Shown here: positions 48,439 through 54,287 of the stretch, piece by piece
Layout of the letters: the number at the start of each line of letters is the position of its first letter
How positions within the stretch are numbered: the first letter of the stretch is position 1
Origin: an uncultured Gammaproteobacteria bacterium
GTDB taxonomy: Bacteria > Patescibacteriota > Microgenomatia > UBA8517
Reading direction: 5' to 3'
NCBI GenBank assembly: GCA_964587425.1
Contig: CAZPLB010000003.1
Location: forward strand, 1 to 58,762
Length of the DNA: 58,762 nt
The notes under the pieces: model-generated
Databases searched by the model: none
Told to the model about the DNA's origin: nothing
What the model saw: only the letters and a program-made list of their open reading frames with translations
Made by a program: the position numbers and the translations under genes

Positions 48439-48510
48439 GCCGACGTAGCTCAGGGGTAGAGCAGAATTTTTGTAAAATTAAGGTCGGAGGTTCAAATCCT
48501 CCCGTCGGCT
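48439..48510 (+). tRNA. tRNA-Thr(TGT)
   Basis: GCCGACG..GAATT-TT-TGT-AA-AATTA..GGAGG-TTCAAAT-CCTCC-CGTCGGC; one G-A mismatch in the anticodon stem. Confidence 0.88.
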
Positions 48511-48581
48511 CACCCTATAATATTTGAATTGCACTTTAAAATGGGTGTATCGTAGTGGTCAATTAAATGATACTATTAACT

Positions 48582-49367
48582 ATGGCCAAAAGATGGACCA
48601 AGAATGAAGAGTTTTTAAAGCATAAAGAGCTCAAAGAACTCTATTTGAAAAAGAACATGAGCATAGGACAAATTGCAGAAATTCTTAATATCGCTCAAAG
48701 CACGGTATATGACAGATTATTAAGATTAGGAATAAAATCTATTCGTTCTCAAAAGGAAGGATTTAACAACAAACGGTTAGACATATCAATTCCAAGAAAA
48801 TTTTCAAAAGAATTATCTGAGTTTATAGGAATAATGTTGGGAGATGGACACTTGACTTCCACACAAGTCGCTGTAACACTTGGCAACAAGGAAGAGAGTT
48901 ATGTTAACTATGTGTCGGAACTTGTAAATAAAATATTTAAAATTAAACCAAAGATTCTAAGATTAAAGAAAGGGTATTTTGTGGTTTACTTTGGTTCCAC
49001 GGAAGTTGTTCGATGGTTGCTTTCGATGGGACTAGTATTTAATAAGGTTAGACAGCAAGTAGATGTACCAGTCTGGATTTTTTCCAATCACAATTGGATG
49101 GAAGGTTTTCTTAGAGGTTTTTTTGACACCGATGGTTCTGTGTATAAACTAAAATTCGGTATACAAATAGCATTCACAAATAGATCCTTGCCGATGTTAA
49201 AATCGATACATCGGTGTTTAACATTATTGGACTATAATCCATCCAAGATTAGTTTATTTCGTGTATATTTAACAAGAAAAGAAGATGTAAATAGGTTTTT
49301 TACAACAATTGGGTCAGCAAACTTGAAACATCAACAACGATTTGAGAAATTTTCATTGACAAACTAA
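48582..49367 (+). mobile_element. Free-standing LAGLIDADG (DOD-type) homing endonuclease with N-terminal HTH
   Basis: IGQIAEILNIAQSTVYDRL (HTH); FIGIMLGDGH and FLRGFFDTDGSV; stop 1 nt before tRNA-Tyr. Confidence 0.88.
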
Positions 49368-49368
49368 A

Positions 49369-49452
49369 GCTGAGGTGGCGGAGCGGCAAACGCACATGAC
49401 TGTAGATCATGCGTCCGAAAGGACTTCATAGGTTCGAGTCCTATCCTCAGCA
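49369..49452 (+). tRNA. tRNA-Tyr(GTA)
   Basis: GCTGAGG..CATGA-CT-GTA-GA-TCATG, long variable arm, ATAGG-TTCGAGT-CCTAT-CCTCAGC-A. Confidence 0.95.
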
Positions 49453-49471
49453 CAAAAGAAGAATTGAGAAA

Positions 49472-50344
49472 TCACTGTACCCATTCAGGCTGTGCCCAAT
49501 TTCTCATATAGATTGGTAACTTTTCCTCACTTACAATCTTGTTCTTGTTGAATGTAAGTTTGATTGCCAACCCTTGTCTTGTTTTCTCACTCCACATTTG
49601 GTCAAAAACAAAGTTCCCAAGCGAATAGTAAACTGGTTTTCCATCAATATATTCAATATCTTGTACCCAATGAGGGTGGCTCCCTGCAATTACATCAGCC
49701 CCACTCTCAATAAGTTTTTTAGCTGTAGTTCTTTGATGAATATTAGCAGTAGCCTGATATTCACTTCCCCAGTGAACTGCAACAATTAATACATCTACTT
49801 TCAAGTTCGCATCTCTTACTAACTTCATATCAGTCTCTGTAATATCACTATCAATAAACTCAAACCCCATAAAGCCAAATTTAGTTCCACCCACATTCTT
49901 TACAACTAGATTTTGATATCCAACTGAGCTAATGCCCGCATCAGTCAAAAAATTAGTAGTTTTACTTTTGCCATCAGCTCCATAATTTAGTGTGTGGTTA
50001 TTTGCAAGGTTTGCTACATCGATTCCTGCATATGTAAGTCCTTCAATCATCCGAGGAAGTGCGCAAAAGATCATCCCATCAGTTCGTCTTGGACAATTAT
50101 CAATAATAGGATTTTCAAGATTAACAAATACCAAATCAGCACTCTTTAATTCCTGAGAAACATTCTTGAATGGGTATGTGGGGTCGTTCAAATCAAGACT
50201 TTTTGTCATGACGCTTCGCCCAAGCATCACGTCTCCAGTGAGAAGTATGGTGACATTCTCACTATTAACACCTCTCACCCTGGTATAGGAGACCACAAGA
50301 AGACAGAGAGATACAACAATTAAAAGTCCAACTATCTTCTTCAC
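49472..50344 (-). CDS. CapA/PgsA family metallophosphoesterase-like protein
   Basis: GDVMLGR, NLENP, LANNHTLNYG, VHWGSEY, GSHPHWVQ, YSLGNFVFDQ. Confidence 0.93.
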   Translation of the reverse strand: MKKIVGLLIVVSLCLLVVSYTRVRGVNSENVTILLTGDVMLGRSVMTKSLDLNDPTYPFKNVSQELKSADLVFVNLENPIIDNCPRRTDGMIFCALPRMIEGLTYAGIDVANLANNHTLNYGADGKSKTTNFLTDAGISSVGYQNLVVKNVGGTKFGFMGFEFIDSDITETDMKLVRDANLKVDVLIVAVHWGSEYQATANIHQRTTAKKLIESGADVIAGSHPHWVQDIEYIDGKPVYYSLGNFVFDQMWSEKTRQGLAIKLTFNKNKIVSEEKLPIYMRNWAQPEWVQ

Positions 50345-50373
50345 AATATATTCAGTATAACTTTTTTGAAGAT

Positions 50374-50540
50374 AAAAAAGACCCCGCCAAACGGTTTTGA
50401 TAAATTTTGGTTTCCTTGTTGTGACAAGGTGGATGAGCTCGCTTTGAATCCTTTTATAAACTCAAATAATTTGCTCTTCCAATTAGATGATAATCAAGGA
50501 AAGCCATCTAACATCTATCAAAGACCTATACAGCAGGGTC
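50374..50540 (-). ncRNA. ssrS: Putative 6S RNA
   Basis: Own promoter (TTTACA-18-TGC-TACAAT); 5' and 3' ends pair; rod with central bubble and terminal hairpin; U6 tail; hand-folded only. Confidence 0.72.
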
Positions 50541-50575
50541 AACTAATTGTAGCAAATTAAGTCAAGGGGTGTAAA

Positions 50576-51202
50576 TTAAATTGTTCCTATCCCAGGCAAG
50601 AAAATATTCAGAAAAAACCTCATAATGGGGAAAATTATGATAGATATTGGTGAAGACCCTCCCCAAATAGGCATTATTAGGAAAATCAAAACAAAAAGAC
50701 CATATCTTTGCATAAATAAATCAACTTGTCTTCCTTCACGGTTAGGCAGTAGTGCAATCAAAACCTTCCCTCCATCAAGTGGATGAATTGGGAGTAAATT
50801 AAAAGAGGCAAGTGCAACGCTTATAATTACAAAATTGGTCAAAAATGGAGAGATGATAACACTAGCTTCAGGCACTAAAAACCGTAAAACTAATGAAGCA
50901 ATAGAGGCAGTAACTAAATTTGAAATCGGTCCAGCAATTGAAATCAAGGCTGAGTCTCTTTTGGGGTTACCAAGATTATATGGATCAAACTGTACTGGTT
51001 TCCCCCAACCAAATCGAAAACCAGTCAGTATCATGGCCAGAGTTCCAATGGGGTCAAGATGTTTAATAGGGTTAAGTGTTAACCTCCCCATAAGCCTCGC
51101 AGTTGGATCTCCAAGCTCATTTGCCATCCACGCATGAGCCGCCTCGTGAAAGGTGAGAGCTGCAAGAAGTGCGATAATTTCAAAAACAAAAAACTCAAAC
51201 AT
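50576..51202 (-). CDS. Site-2 protease (M50 family)
   Basis: HEAAH, AGPISN, FNLLPIHPLDGGK. Confidence 0.95.
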   Translation of the reverse strand: MFEFFVFEIIALLAALTFHEAAHAWMANELGDPTARLMGRLTLNPIKHLDPIGTLAMILTGFRFGWGKPVQFDPYNLGNPKRDSALISIAGPISNLVTASIASLVLRFLVPEASVIISPFLTNFVIISVALASFNLLPIHPLDGGKVLIALLPNREGRQVDLFMQRYGLFVLIFLIMPIWGGSSPISIIIFPIMRFFLNIFLPGIGTI

Positions 51203-51237: not shown

Positions 51238-51501
51238 ATGTCATTTATTTGCGACAATTGCCACAAAGTTACTGTAACTGGCCGTACCCACAGCCACAAG
51301 CGTGGTATTGCTGGAAAAAGATGGTTAAAAAGAGCCCCAGTAACCCTCAGAACTTTTAGTCCAAACATTCAAAAAGCAACAATCACACTAGATGGAAAAA
51401 GGATTCAATTAAAGCTCTGTACAAAATGCATAAAGAGATTTAAAAATGAAGGATTAATCAAAACTACTCGCCGAACCCAAACTCTGAGTGCCCTTGCCTG
51501 A
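51238..51501 (+). CDS. rpmB: 50S ribosomal protein bL28
   Basis: CDNCHK..G..SH..RTFSPNIQ..CTKCIK. Confidence 0.92.
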   Translation: MSFICDNCHKVTVTGRTHSHKRGIAGKRWLKRAPVTLRTFSPNIQKATITLDGKRIQLKLCTKCIKRFKNEGLIKTTRRTQTLSALA

Positions 51502-52345
51502 ATTGTTCCCAACTCACTTTGTCTTTTCCTTCCAATTGCACCTCATCTAATATTAGTTTTTCAAACTCAATATGAGCCTTCAAGATTTTAAATCTTAATT
51601 TTTCCTCTCCAATCACTACATATGTCCAGGCAATAGGCCAAGGATACATAGCACGAACTCTTCTTTCAACTTCTTCAATTCCTTTTCCTTCAAGTGCGCC
51701 AGCTAATGTTTTTGGTTCAATAAAGCCATCCTGTTTAGAAAGTATTTTAGTAATGGTTGCCTGTATCTCATCCTGTTTTTTAAGTCTAACTTTTCCTCCA
51801 ACATAGCTTGGAATTAAATTAATCAAAAAGTCAGCAGATCTTTTAAATAGTCTCCTTCTTAAACTGTCATTAGTATCATCTGGGAGTATCTCATCTTTAA
51901 AGTAGCTCACAACCTGTCCATGGTCCATCTTTTCATCCATCTTAATAATACTAACTCCAATTTCAGTTTCACCTTCTAAAATTGCAGTCTGAATAGGGGA
52001 TGCACCTCTATATTTAGGAAGTAGAGAAGGATGAATATTAAGTATTCCAAATTTAAACTTTTTGATAATAGCTGCAGGAATAATCCTTCCATATGCAGCA
52101 ACAATTCCAAGATCAGCTTCAGGAAACTTTCTGAGGTCAAATTCTCGTATTGTGACCACTCCATGTCTGTCATGTGCCCAGCTATCAACTGCAGAGTAAG
52201 TCATGAATTTCTTGCGCCCAACAGGGCGTGGTGGCTGTGTAACTACAGCAATCAAATTCGTTTCATGCGGTGTGTCATATGCCTTGTGTAAAGCATTAAG
52301 TACTGGAAGTACATAATCAGGTGTTCCAAAAAAGATTATTTTCAT
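51464..52345 (-). CDS. fmt: Methionyl-tRNA formyltransferase
   Basis: MKIIFFGTP, VTQPPRPVGR, NIHPSLLPKYRGASPIQ, MDEKMDHG. Confidence 0.96.
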   Translation of the reverse strand: MKIIFFGTPDYVLPVLNALHKAYDTPHETNLIAVVTQPPRPVGRKKFMTYSAVDSWAHDRHGVVTIREFDLRKFPEADLGIVAAYGRIIPAAIIKKFKFGILNIHPSLLPKYRGASPIQTAILEGETEIGVSIIKMDEKMDHGQVVSYFKDEILPDDTNDSLRRRLFKRSADFLINLIPSYVGGKVRLKKQDEIQATITKILSKQDGFIEPKTLAGALEGKGIEEVERRVRAMYPWPIAWTYVVIGEEKLRFKILKAHIEFEKLILDEVQLEGKDKVSWEQFRQGHSEFGFGE

Positions 52346-52433: not shown

Positions 52434-54287
52434 ATGTTCAAGAAGTTTTTGGTGTTGTTTTATGTCTTACTCATAATATCGTCATGTCTCAGTATCTTCG
52501 TATCAAGTGCCAAAGCTTACTACACCAATATGCCGGCCACTCAAGTATTGGGTCAAACAAATTTCACAGATAGCGCTGGAGGAGTAAGCAGTACTAAATT
52601 TTTTGATAATACCACACATCAAACCAACACCGGTCTGGCTGGTATTTTTGTCGATCCAAATGGGAGGCTAATAGTTTCAGATTTTAGTAATGCTAGAGTT
52701 TTAATTTGGAATAGAGTTCCAACAACTAATGGCGCACCCGCTGATTTAGTTCTAGGCCAGCCTGATTTTATAAGCAGTACCTCAAACAACGGAGGTAGAT
52801 CAGCTAGCTCAATGAATGCAGGCGGTGTTGAAGGTGTTTACTCTACGGGGACAAAATTATTTGTAGCAGATACAGGTAATAATCGTATCCTAATCTGGAA
52901 TACCTTCCCCACTACAAATGGTCAGGCAGCAGATGTCGTAGTTGGACAAACAGACTTTGCTTCAGCGGCCACTACATGTGACAATGTAACGCTTCGAATT
53001 CCAGATGTTGTGTTTGTGTACCAAGATAAACTAGTAGTTACCGATAGGAATCATGCAAGGGTGATGATATGGAATTCAATTCCAACCACAAATGGCCAGA
53101 CTGCAGATCTGGTAATTGGCAAAACAAATTTTAGCGATTGTTCAACTGCTACAGTAGTTACCCAAAGCAATTTAAGTAATCCATTCGGCCTTTTTGTAGA
53201 CAATGGAAAGCTATTTGTTACCGAAGCAAATGTTAACCGCGTCCTAATCTGGAATACCTTCCCCACTACAAATGGTCAGGCAGCAGATGTGGTGGTTGGA
53301 CAAACAAATTTTGAAAATAGTACAACTGGAACAACTATATCGACATTGAATAACCCCAATTATGTATACATAAAAGACAGTCGGATGTTTGTTTCTGATG
53401 AAGTAAATCACCGTATACTAATTTTTAACTCAATTCCAACAACCAATGGAGCAAGCGCAGATCTAGTTTTAGGTCAACCCAGTTTTACCTCTGGGTCAGC
53501 TAATCAGGGAAGCTCAACAGCGGCAAACACTTTAAATAGACCAAGAGCAGTCTTCATTTACAACAACAAACTCTTTGTTGGTGACCCAATAAATGCCAGA
53601 GTCCTCATCTTTCCTAACATCATGGATACTCCAAGTATGAATATAACCACACCACCAGAAACTGTAAACAACACCACTCTCAGAGTCAGAGGTAGTATCC
53701 AACTGGGAAACAGACCAAATTACAGTATGCAGTGGGTCAAAGCAGACATCAATGGAGGAGGACTGGGATATGTAACTAGTTTGGGTGGAGGACGTGACAA
53801 TGGAGACTCTCAAACTCTGTATGACTTCATGAATGAATTTAATCCCACAGTTAATGGAGGAACCACCACTAACTACACCATGAAGTTAGTAGCTAGTTCC
53901 TTCAATGCAGATACAACCTCTCTCTTTTACTTCCAACCTTTTAATTTTGAATATATACGTAGAACAAACCCAACCCTCTCAATTACCAAACAAAATTTAA
54001 ACATCTCCTTCCTTGTCAACAAACTAAATATCCAGAGAATGAAAGACAATATTGATCATTTTGAAGTTCTCACCTCTACAGACAGTGGTAAACTCTGGAA
54101 CAAACTCACTACCAATATATCTACAGACAAGATTAATGACCAAGGTAATATATATCTAACCATTCCAAATACCCTCACCCCTGGAACAAAATACCTAGTC
54201 AAAGTAGTATCAGTATCAAAGGACAGTAACTGGAGACAGGACTCTAACTCTCTCACTTACTTTGTACCAAAGAAAAAGACAAAGTAA
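52434..54287 (+). CDS. Secreted NHL-repeat beta-propeller protein with C-terminal beta domains
   Basis: Signal peptide; repeated L(F/I)V(A/S)D..N.RVLIWN..PTTNG..ADLV(L/V)GQ. Confidence 0.88.
   Translation: MFKKFLVLFYVLLIISSCLSIFVSSAKAYYTNMPATQVLGQTNFTDSAGGVSSTKFFDNTTHQTNTGLAGIFVDPNGRLIVSDFSNARVLIWNRVPTTNGAPADLVLGQPDFISSTSNNGGRSASSMNAGGVEGVYSTGTKLFVADTGNNRILIWNTFPTTNGQAADVVVGQTDFASAATTCDNVTLRIPDVVFVYQDKLVVTDRNHARVMIWNSIPTTNGQTADLVIGKTNFSDCSTATVVTQSNLSNPFGLFVDNGKLFVTEANVNRVLIWNTFPTTNGQAADVVVGQTNFENSTTGTTISTLNNPNYVYIKDSRMFVSDEVNHRILIFNSIPTTNGASADLVLGQPSFTSGSANQGSSTAANTLNRPRAVFIYNNKLFVGDPINARVLIFPNIMDTPSMNITTPPETVNNTTLRVRGSIQLGNRPNYSMQWVKADINGGGLGYVTSLGGGRDNGDSQTLYDFMNEFNPTVNGGTTTNYTMKLVASSFNADTTSLFYFQPFNFEYIRRTNPTLSITKQNLNISFLVNKLNIQRMKDNIDHFEVLTSTDSGKLWNKLTTNISTDKINDQGNIYLTIPNTLTPGTKYLVKVVSVSKDSNWRQDSNSLTYFVPKKKTK
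52888..53290 (+). repeat. Identical 49-bp direct repeat inside the NHL gene (52888-52936 and 53242-53290)
   Basis: tcctaatctggaataccttccccactacaaatggtcaggcagcagatgt twice, 354 bp apart. Confidence 0.9.

What the first reader, a model, noticed from the sequence alone, without database searches (positions are those of the whole stretch)
50374..50575. Unannotated 6S-like RNA, including the pRNA-induced switch hairpin
Seen on the minus strand: promoter TTTACA(50575)-18 nt-TACAAT with extended TG, then about 165 nt folding by hand into a rod. Stems: GACCCTGC/GCGGGGTC, GGT/ACC, TTTGATAGAT/ATTTATCAAA, TTTCCTTG/CAAGGAAA. Central bubble: ATTATCATCTAATT opposite ACCTTGTCACAA. Then GGA-A-GAGC/GCTC-A-TCC and terminal TTTGAGTTT/GGATTCAAA, followed by U6. 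The 3' bubble can re-pair as CCTTGT-CACA-ACAAGG once the 5' strand TTTCCTTG is displaced. Established: this is the rearrangement 6S RNAs undergo during pRNA-driven RNA polymerase release. I cannot tell whether 6S RNA has already been reported in this lineage.
Basis: partly seen in the sequence, partly recalled or inferred. Interest (0 to 1): 0.82.

Follow-up and report, generated by a model that had tools for sequence, protein, structure and literature searches.

The report
Divergent 6S RNA gene in Patescibacteria
The flagged intergenic stretch encodes a roughly 161-nt 6S RNA, the widespread small RNA that mimics an open promoter to sequester RNA polymerase, in a Woesebacteria-like candidate-phyla-radiation bacterium; it scores just under the standard database cut-off, so routine annotation misses it.

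Summary
On the minus strand, 50540 to 50380, lies a self-contained small-RNA gene. It has a TG-extended -10 box ending 5 nt before the first base, 5' and 3' ends that pair, and a U6 tail.

Rfam's 6S model (RF00013) matches it end to end at 40.4 bits, E = 3e-7, when only the locus is searched. That is below the curated cut-off of 46.4 bits, so the whole-window gathering search did not report it. A 351-nt search missed it too, presumably lost to the speed filters. Four relatives also give sub-threshold full-length 6S matches (25-39 bits).

I found 18 further distinct homologues in Patescibacteria, mostly directly downstream of the same M50 protease gene but with varying downstream neighbours. 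Compensatory changes support the rod fold: 38 of 50 pairs change on both sides.

When the template strand is masked, the E. coli-type release hairpin forms in 13 of 16 sequences. Most relatives also carry a B. subtilis-type "central bubble collapse helix". The window's subclade has a 5' hairpin instead.

The antisense ORF is not conserved. This is a new member of a known kind. Expression, polymerase binding and pRNA synthesis are untested.

The parts
50546..50575 (-). Promoter: -35-like TTTACA (50575-50570), a conserved TTG (50565-50563), and the TG-extended -10 TGCTACAAT (50554-50546).
   Evidence: Promoter scan. The TAnnnT box ends 5-6 nt before the first G of GACCC in all 13 relatives, and 10 of 13 have the TG. 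TTG-N8-TGnTAnnnT is shared by most orthologues but is not a general motif in the window: 2 matches against 4.1 expected.
50380..50540 (-). 6S RNA (ssrS-like) gene, about 161 nt, from 5'-GACCCUGC to GCGGGGUC-3'.
   Evidence: Rfam RF00013, 40.4 bits, E = 3e-7, model 1-187 of 187. Family model R1, 111 bits. MFE z-score -6.0.
50374..50379 (-). U6 tract after the closing stem; likely the termination site in this genome.
   Evidence: Sequence. U-rich tails follow the stem in most but not all relatives.
50531..50540 (-). Closing stem, 5' strand GACCCUGCUG. Pairs with 50380-50389 (UGGCGGGGUC).
   Evidence: Helix 1 is 96% paired in 16 sequences, with 7 of 10 pairs changed on both sides.
50513..50522 (-). 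Second stem, 5' strand UUUGAUAGAU. Pairs with 50396-50405 (AUUUAUCAAA).
   Evidence: The sequence is completely replaced in relatives with pairing kept; all pairs of helix 5 change on both sides.
50495..50506 (-). Downstream helix, 5' (template-side) strand UGG-C-UUUCCUUG. Pairs with 50408-50418 (CAAGGAAACCA). This is the helix that pRNA synthesis would unwind.
   Evidence: Aligned to the 6S model helix (positions 32-42 with 144-154). Helix 7 is 83% paired with 4 pairs changed on both sides.
50482..50494 (-). 5' strand of the central bubble (AUUAUCAUCUAAU); predicted pRNA template and start region.
   Evidence: Aligned to the 16-nt bubble of RF00013. E. coli U44, the pRNA start (PMC3988568), aligns to model position 45, which corresponds to window A50494. 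The nearest pyrimidines are 50493-50492 and 50489.
50419..50429 (-). 3' strand of the central bubble (CCUUGUCACAA), preceded by the conserved A of CCACCU.
   Evidence: Matches the model consensus CCCACCUgg.aAcagCa. The CCAC string is invariant in 13 relatives.
50414..50429 (-). Release hairpin CCUUGU-CACA-ACAAGG. Mutually exclusive with the downstream helix.
   Evidence: Forms in the MFE and when the template strand is masked, in 13 of 16 relatives. 3 of 5 pairs change on both sides (helix 8).
50430..50481 (-). Terminal (upstream) arm: UGGA-A-GAGC (50481-50473) pairs with GCUC-A-UCCA (50438-50430); an internal loop; then the apical hairpin UUUGAGUUU/GGAUUCAAA (50466-50443).
   Evidence: Helices 8-10 are 82-98% paired, and 10 of 11 apical pairs change on both sides.
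50483..50511 (-). Alternative 5' hairpin UUAGAUG (50511-50505) with CAUCUAA (50489-50483). It encloses UUUCCUUG in its loop. Role unknown.
   Evidence: Present in the MFE. L096 has GAGA(A)UGC/GCAUCUC and L017 has AGGUG/CAUCU at the same place.

Best explanation
This is the 6S RNA (SsrS) gene of a Woesebacteria-like member of the Patescibacteria.

Shown here. A TG-extended -10 promoter sits immediately before a 161-nt sequence whose ends pair. The sequence folds into the 6S rod: a closing stem, a downstream helix, a bubble of about 13 opposite 11 nt, and a terminal arm. It matches the Rfam 6S model end to end with a significant E-value. The helices are kept by compensatory changes in relatives.

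Inferred from the E. coli and B. subtilis systems.
- The rod mimics an open promoter and occupies the active-site cleft of the sigma-A/sigma-70 holoenzyme, withholding it from promoters.
- When NTPs rise, the polymerase uses the 5' bubble strand as template. It starts around 50494-50489 and reads into UUUCCUUG, giving a short product RNA of the type 5'-(GAU)AAUCAAGGAAAGCC.
- This strips CAAGGAAA from its partner. The freed strand then pairs with the bubble's CCUUGU to form the release hairpin, and the 6S:pRNA complex is expelled.
For: - RF00013 matches 50542-50377 (-) at 40.4 bits, E = 3e-7, over model positions 1-187.
- The same model hits the orthologous RNAs in L081 (38.7 bits), L094 (32.1), L022 and L014 (about 25), always on the right strand and full length. 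The E. coli ssrS control scores 139.8 bits.
- MFE z-score is -6.0.
- The rod conformer lies within 0-9.5 kcal/mol of the MFE in 13 relatives and is itself the MFE in two.
- Covariation on 16 sequences: 83.8% of cells paired against 68.8% in shuffles; 38 of 50 pairs changed on both sides; score 0.504 against 0.224 shuffled and 0.10-0.16 for slid registers.
- The release hairpin forms in 13 of 16 when the template strand is masked.
- In L003 the downstream helix, the bubble strand and the shared 3' strand all change together: CCUGA, CCUGAA and UUCAGG in place of CCUUG, CCUUGU and ACAAGG.
- The -10 box lies at a fixed distance from the 5' end in all 13 relatives.
- The downstream neighbour varies (capA, tRNAs, reverse-strand genes), so this is not a leader.
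- Mechanism literature: PMC3988568 and PMC8876501.
Against: - The Rfam score is below the curated gathering cut-off (40.4 against 46.4 bits). It was missed in the whole-window search and in a 351-nt search at E <= 10.
- The predicted lowest-energy fold of the free RNA closes the bubble rather than leaving it open. The 5' bubble strand has a mean pairing probability of 0.63, against 0.19 for E. coli 6S.
- The covariation alignment was fitted to the model's structure, which inflates pair counts.
- The most conserved helix (UUUCCUU/AAGGGAA) varies little, so it is only weakly tested.
- There is no expression, polymerase-binding or pRNA data.
Confidence: 0.85

Rival explanations
1. A trans-acting base-pairing small RNA. 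Its exposed, highly conserved UUUUCCUU motif would bind Shine-Dalgarno-like AAGGA/GGGGAA sites in mRNAs. The resemblance to 6S would then be superficial.
For: UUUCCU(U/C) is invariant in the 13 closest relatives. In the MFE folds it sits in a hairpin loop or a large bulge.
Against: The motif's perfect partner is inside the same molecule and changes with it: UUUCCUC with GGGGAAAA in L096, UUCCUGA with UCAGGAGA in L003. The whole RNA aligns end to end to the 6S model. No target was sought or found.
Confidence: 0.05
2. A cis-acting element of the flanking genes: either a 3' UTR or terminator structure of the M50 protease mRNA, or a leader or attenuator of capA.
For: The RNA lies on the same strand directly after the protease stop codon in 13 loci. 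In the window it ends 30 nt before capA with a stem followed by U6.
Against: - A conserved extended -10 box sits at a fixed 5-6 nt from the 5' end.
- The downstream gene differs in almost every relative, so it is not a capA leader.
- In L037 and L064 the RNA lies upstream of the protease gene.
- The U tail is absent in L081 and L002.
- A 160-nt rod with covariation along its whole length is far more than a terminator needs.
Confidence: 0.05
3. A small protein gene on the opposite strand: the 64-codon ORF at 50366-50560 (+).
For: The ORF is open across the whole element in the window.
Against: No Pfam match. The antisense frames carry stops in 11 of 13 relatives, including one stop in the closest relative L081. 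Substitutions follow base-pairing, not codons.
Confidence: 0.01

Closest known systems
E. coli / gamma-proteobacterial 6S RNA (ssrS, Rfam RF00013)
   Same: - Rod of closing stem, downstream helix, large open bubble and terminal arm.
- Shared strings CCCUG, GGGAG, CACC(C)ACCU and CGGGG at the homologous model positions.
- A top-strand release hairpin built from the 3' bubble strand and the 3' strand of the downstream helix: E. coli CCUUGAACC/GGUUCAAGG, here CCUUGU/ACAAGG (PMC3988568).
   Different: - 161 nt rather than 183.
- 40 bits against 140 bits on the family model.
- The release hairpin has 6 bp rather than 9.
- The free-RNA fold is predicted to close the bubble.
- The E. coli neighbour fau (5-formyl-THF cyclo-ligase) is replaced here by def-fmt-rpmB-protease.
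- Here the 5' end appears to be primary, directly at the closing stem. E. coli 6S is processed (my recollection, not checked here).
Bacillus subtilis 6S-1 and Aquifex aeolicus 6S RNA
   Same: Most relatives of the window RNA have a helix between the distal 5' bubble strand and the 3' strand of the downstream helix, for example GAAGUUUU/AAAACUUC. [quoted passage not shown] Two of its pairs show compensatory changes.
   Different: - The window's own subclade (window, L081, L082, L096, L017) lacks this helix. It pairs the same bubble segment with sequence 5' of the downstream helix instead.
- The Patescibacterial RNAs also carry the E. coli-type hairpin that forms with the freed 3' strand. [quoted passage not shown]
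Ms1 RNA of Actinobacteria
   Same: A structured RNA that binds RNA polymerase and is structurally related to 6S (PMC9130861 abstract).
   Different: Ms1 binds core polymerase and is longer. No Ms1 match appeared in any Rfam search here, whereas the 6S model matches.

Membership tests
6S / SsrS RNA (Rfam RF00013) | Match to the curated covariance model at or above its gathering score (46.4 bits). | tested here: inconclusive
   40.4 bits, E = 3e-7, full-length, correct strand. This is significant but 6 bits under the curated cut-off. Orthologues score 25-39 bits; the E. coli control scores 139.8.
6S / SsrS RNA (Rfam RF00013) | Rod architecture: closing stem, downstream helix, large two-stranded central bubble, terminal arm; about 150-200 nt. 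| tested here: met
   Constrained fold at -54.6 kcal/mol with a 13/11-nt bubble. 148-181 nt in relatives. 38 of 50 pairs change on both sides. Caveat: the unconstrained MFE closes the bubble.
6S / SsrS RNA (Rfam RF00013) | Capacity for the pRNA-induced rearrangement (release hairpin and/or central bubble collapse helix). | tested here: met
   The release hairpin forms in 13 of 16 sequences when the template strand is masked. A collapse-helix equivalent is present in 10 relatives. Definitions from PMC3988568 and PMC8876501.
6S / SsrS RNA (Rfam RF00013) | Independent transcription unit. | tested here: met
   A conserved TG-extended -10 lies 5-6 nt from the 5' end in 13 of 13 relatives. This is sequence evidence only; no transcript data.
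6S / SsrS RNA (Rfam RF00013) | Binds the housekeeping-sigma RNA polymerase holoenzyme and templates pRNA. | not testable with these tools
   Needs co-immunoprecipitation, gel shift, or small-RNA sequencing.
Cis-regulatory leader or riboswitch of capA | Conserved linkage to the regulated downstream gene. | tested here: not met
   The downstream gene is capA only in the window. Elsewhere it is a tRNA, a reverse-strand gene or a hypothetical gene.

The most novel reading that the evidence does not exclude
Patescibacterial 6S RNAs may be a distinct structural subtype carrying both known release devices at once: the E. coli-type 3'-bubble release hairpin and the B. subtilis-type central bubble collapse helix. 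These would hold the free RNA in a closed, self-paired state near-isoenergetic with the open rod.

The window's subclade has exchanged the collapse helix for a 5' hairpin that locks the pRNA template region into a loop. That arrangement has not been described and could gate polymerase binding or pRNA initiation.
Probability: 0.3. Interest if true: 0.55.

Novelty: new member of a known kind. Interest (0 to 1): 0.35.

Why it matters
6S RNA is described as present in nearly all bacteria. Even so, full-text searches found no paper that discusses 6S RNA in Patescibacteria, the candidate phyla radiation or Saccharibacteria (the one paper containing both "6S RNA" and "Patescibacteria" is about mitochondrial SRP).

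All five members that gave an Rfam match here score 25-40 bits against a 46.4-bit cut-off, so Rfam-based pipelines would not annotate them in these genomes.

The finding shows that these tiny-genome, largely symbiotic bacteria keep this global regulator of RNA polymerase. It supplies 19 seed sequences for a lineage-specific model. It also gives a conserved anchor for finding the gene, directly after the M50 protease gene in the def-fmt-rpmB-protease block.

It is not a new mechanism.

Tried and rejected
- The whole-window Rfam search at gathering threshold found only tRNAs. A 351-nt search at E <= 10 also missed 6S. Only the 191-nt search and a multi-locus search recovered it, so I attribute the negative to the speed filters rather than to a poor match; I did not test this directly.
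- The genome-contig scan with a protease profile returned 80 loci at 54% identity or less. A regular-expression scan of them found the RNA only in L002. The covariance model later added L003, L014, L017, L022, L037 and L064.
- The single metagenome scan with a three-block DNA pattern gave 6 loci. Three were real (two identical to L002, plus L089). Three had unrelated sequence and look like chance matches, about the number I had estimated beforehand.
- MAFFT plus RNAalifold on 7 sequences recovered only part of the structure because the variable stems were misaligned. This was replaced by model-based alignments.
- L101 (Woesebacteria RIFCSPHIGHO2_02_FULL_38_9) has no such RNA after its protease gene.
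- SRP RNA was considered and rejected by eye: I saw no conserved GNRA apical loop or domain IV motif.
- CsrB-like, Y RNA and tmRNA were considered only from recollection and were not tested.
- The family model R1 does not detect E. coli ssrS.
- timed out and was rerun.

Full report
**What is there**

- A promoter-like site, TTTACA-18 nt-TACAAT with TG before the -10.
- About 161 nt running from GACCCUGC (50540) to GCGGGGUC (50380).
- A U6 tail.

The RNA folds far better than chance: -58.3 kcal/mol, z = -6.0, with 0 of 200 shuffles as stable.

**Identity**

The standard Rfam search of the whole window at gathering thresholds reported only tRNAs. A permissive search of 351 nt also reported nothing relevant.

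A permissive search of twelve homologous loci then gave full-length 6S (RF00013) matches at exactly the homologous coordinates: L081 at 38.7 bits and L094 at 32.1 bits.

Repeating the search on only 191 nt of the window gave RF00013 at 50542-50377 (-). The score was 40.4 bits, E = 3e-7, over model positions 1-187 of 187. The earlier negative is therefore most likely a loss to the speed filters.

It also matches the family's conserved strings CCCUGC, GGGAG, CA(U)CCACCU and GCGGGG.

More distant members L022 and L014 score about 25 bits. E. coli ssrS, fetched as a control, scores 139.8 bits.

All five Patescibacterial members that gave an Rfam match fall below the curated cut-off of 46.4 bits. 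That is the likely reason the gene is unannotated.

**Relatives and context**

The protease's closest homologues are from Patescibacteria, and the named ones are Woesebacteria.

Using protease orthologues as anchors, I recovered the RNA directly downstream of the protease stop codon in L081, L082, L002 (identical in L088 and L090), L083, L084, L085 (identical in L087), L094, L096, L097, L099 and L106. L089 came from the DNA-pattern scan.

A covariance model built from these 13 sequences (R1) found further members in L003, L014, L017, L022, L037 and L064. In L037 and L064 the RNA lies upstream of the protease gene.

The upstream block def-fmt-rpmB-protease is conserved. The gene after the RNA is different almost everywhere: capA, tRNAs, reverse-strand genes or hypotheticals. 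This rules out a capA leader.

In all 13 close relatives a TAnnnT box ends 5-6 nt before the first G, and 10 of them have the TG extension.

The antisense ORF at 50366-50560 has no Pfam match. It is interrupted in 11 of 13 relatives, including the nearest.

**Structure support**

On the model-based alignment of 16 sequences, the rod compares with its controls as follows:

| Measure | Rod | Shuffled | Slid registers |
|---|---|---|---|
| Cells paired | 83.8% | 68.8% | 39-54% |
| Covariation score | 0.504 | 0.224 | 0.10-0.16 |

Thirty-eight of 50 pairs change on both sides, and 0 of 500 shuffles reach any of the five observed measures.

The second stem and the apical hairpin are completely rewritten between relatives with pairing kept. 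The downstream helix (UUUCCUU/AAGGGAA) is sequence-conserved, but it changes coherently in L096 (UUUCCUC with GGGGAAAA) and L003 (UUCCUGA with UCAGGAGA).

One caveat applies: the alignment was fitted to the structure, which favours it.

**The switch**

The 3' strand of the downstream helix has two possible partners: the 5' strand (rod form) or the 3' bubble strand (hairpin CCUUGU-CACA-ACAAGG).

When about 14 nt of the template strand are masked, as a bound pRNA would do, this hairpin forms in 13 of 16 relatives. L084 forms an equivalent one that the column boundaries undercount. In L003 all three strands have changed together.

This is the release hairpin described for E. coli. [quoted passage not shown]

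In addition, ten relatives can pair the distal 5' bubble strand with the 3' strand of the downstream helix: GAAGUUUU/AAAACUUC, CAAGUU/AACUUG and AGAAAUUUU/AAAAUUUCU. This pairing shows 79% of cells paired, with two pairs changed on both sides. [quoted passage not shown]

The window's own subclade lacks this helix. It pairs the same bubble segment (CAUCUAA) with UUAGAUG, just 5' of the downstream helix. L096 and L017 have different sequences forming the same hairpin.

The rod and the closed conformers are near-isoenergetic, 0-9.5 kcal/mol apart. The 5' bubble strand is predicted paired with mean probability 0.63, against 0.42 after shuffling and 0.19 in E. coli 6S. That is suggestive but not decisive.

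**Mechanism (inferred, not shown)**

By homology, the rod binds the housekeeping holoenzyme as an open-promoter mimic.

E. coli's pRNA start U44 aligns to model position 45, which corresponds to window A50494. Initiation at a nearby pyrimidine (50493-50489) would give a pRNA complementary to ...GGCUUUCCUUGAU.

Extension into UUUCCUUG would free CAAGGAAA. The release hairpin would then form and the complex would dissociate.

**Novelty**

This is a divergent member of a known family, not a new kind of system.

Full-text searches found no paper that discusses 6S RNA in Patescibacteria, the candidate phyla radiation or Saccharibacteria. That is absence in the held library, not proof of absence in the literature.

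The modestly new points are:
- The lineage itself.
- The consistently sub-threshold Rfam scores.
- The tight synteny with the protease gene.
- The coexistence of both known release devices.
- The unexplained 5' hairpin in the window's subclade.

Noticed in passing
window 50546-50565 (-); also the upstream flanks of L082, L083, L084, L094, L096, L097, L099, L106: A conserved TTG sits exactly 8 nt upstream of the TG of the extended -10 (TTG-N8-TGnTAnnnT). That is too close to be a normal -35. The motif is not enriched elsewhere in the window (2 matches against 4.1 expected), so it looks specific to this gene's promoter. It could be a regulator site.
   Followed up: partly
window 50300-50650 compared with 50365-50555: Method note. 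The permissive Rfam search missed a 40-bit full-length 6S match when given 351 nt and found it when given 191 nt. The speed filters are the likely cause. Negative results of that search mode are therefore not reliable for AT-rich divergent members.
   Followed up: yes
window 48567-49367 (+): A free-standing LAGLIDADG-type endonuclease-like ORF (LAGLIDADG_3 plus an N-terminal HTH; 266 aa). It is wedged between tRNA-Thr (48439-48511) and tRNA-Tyr (49369-49453) and ends 1 nt before the tRNA-Tyr.
   Followed up: no
window 51238-51501 (+) and 51464-52345 (-): The rpmB (L28) and fmt genes converge and overlap by 38 nt. The block def-fmt-rpmB-M50 protease-6S is conserved across the Woesebacteria-like relatives. 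In E. coli, 6S sits next to a different folate-related gene (fau). This is probably coincidence.
   Followed up: no
window 52434-54287 (+): A 617-aa protein with about six tandem repeats of a motif like 'R(V/I)LIWN..PTTNG..AD.V(L/V)GQ.(D/N)F'. It looks like a beta-propeller/NHL-type secreted protein.
   Followed up: no
L084 3210-3240: One relative carries an extra 20-nt hairpin (GGUCCUGAAUAAGUCAGGAUC) inserted at the junction between the bubble and the terminal arm, making its RNA 181 nt.
   Followed up: no
L003, L005, L006, L008, L010 and others (record titles): Several genome records carrying Patescibacteria-like protease loci are titled 'uncultured Gammaproteobacteria'. L003 also carries the 6S homologue. 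These look like mislabelled bins.
   Followed up: no
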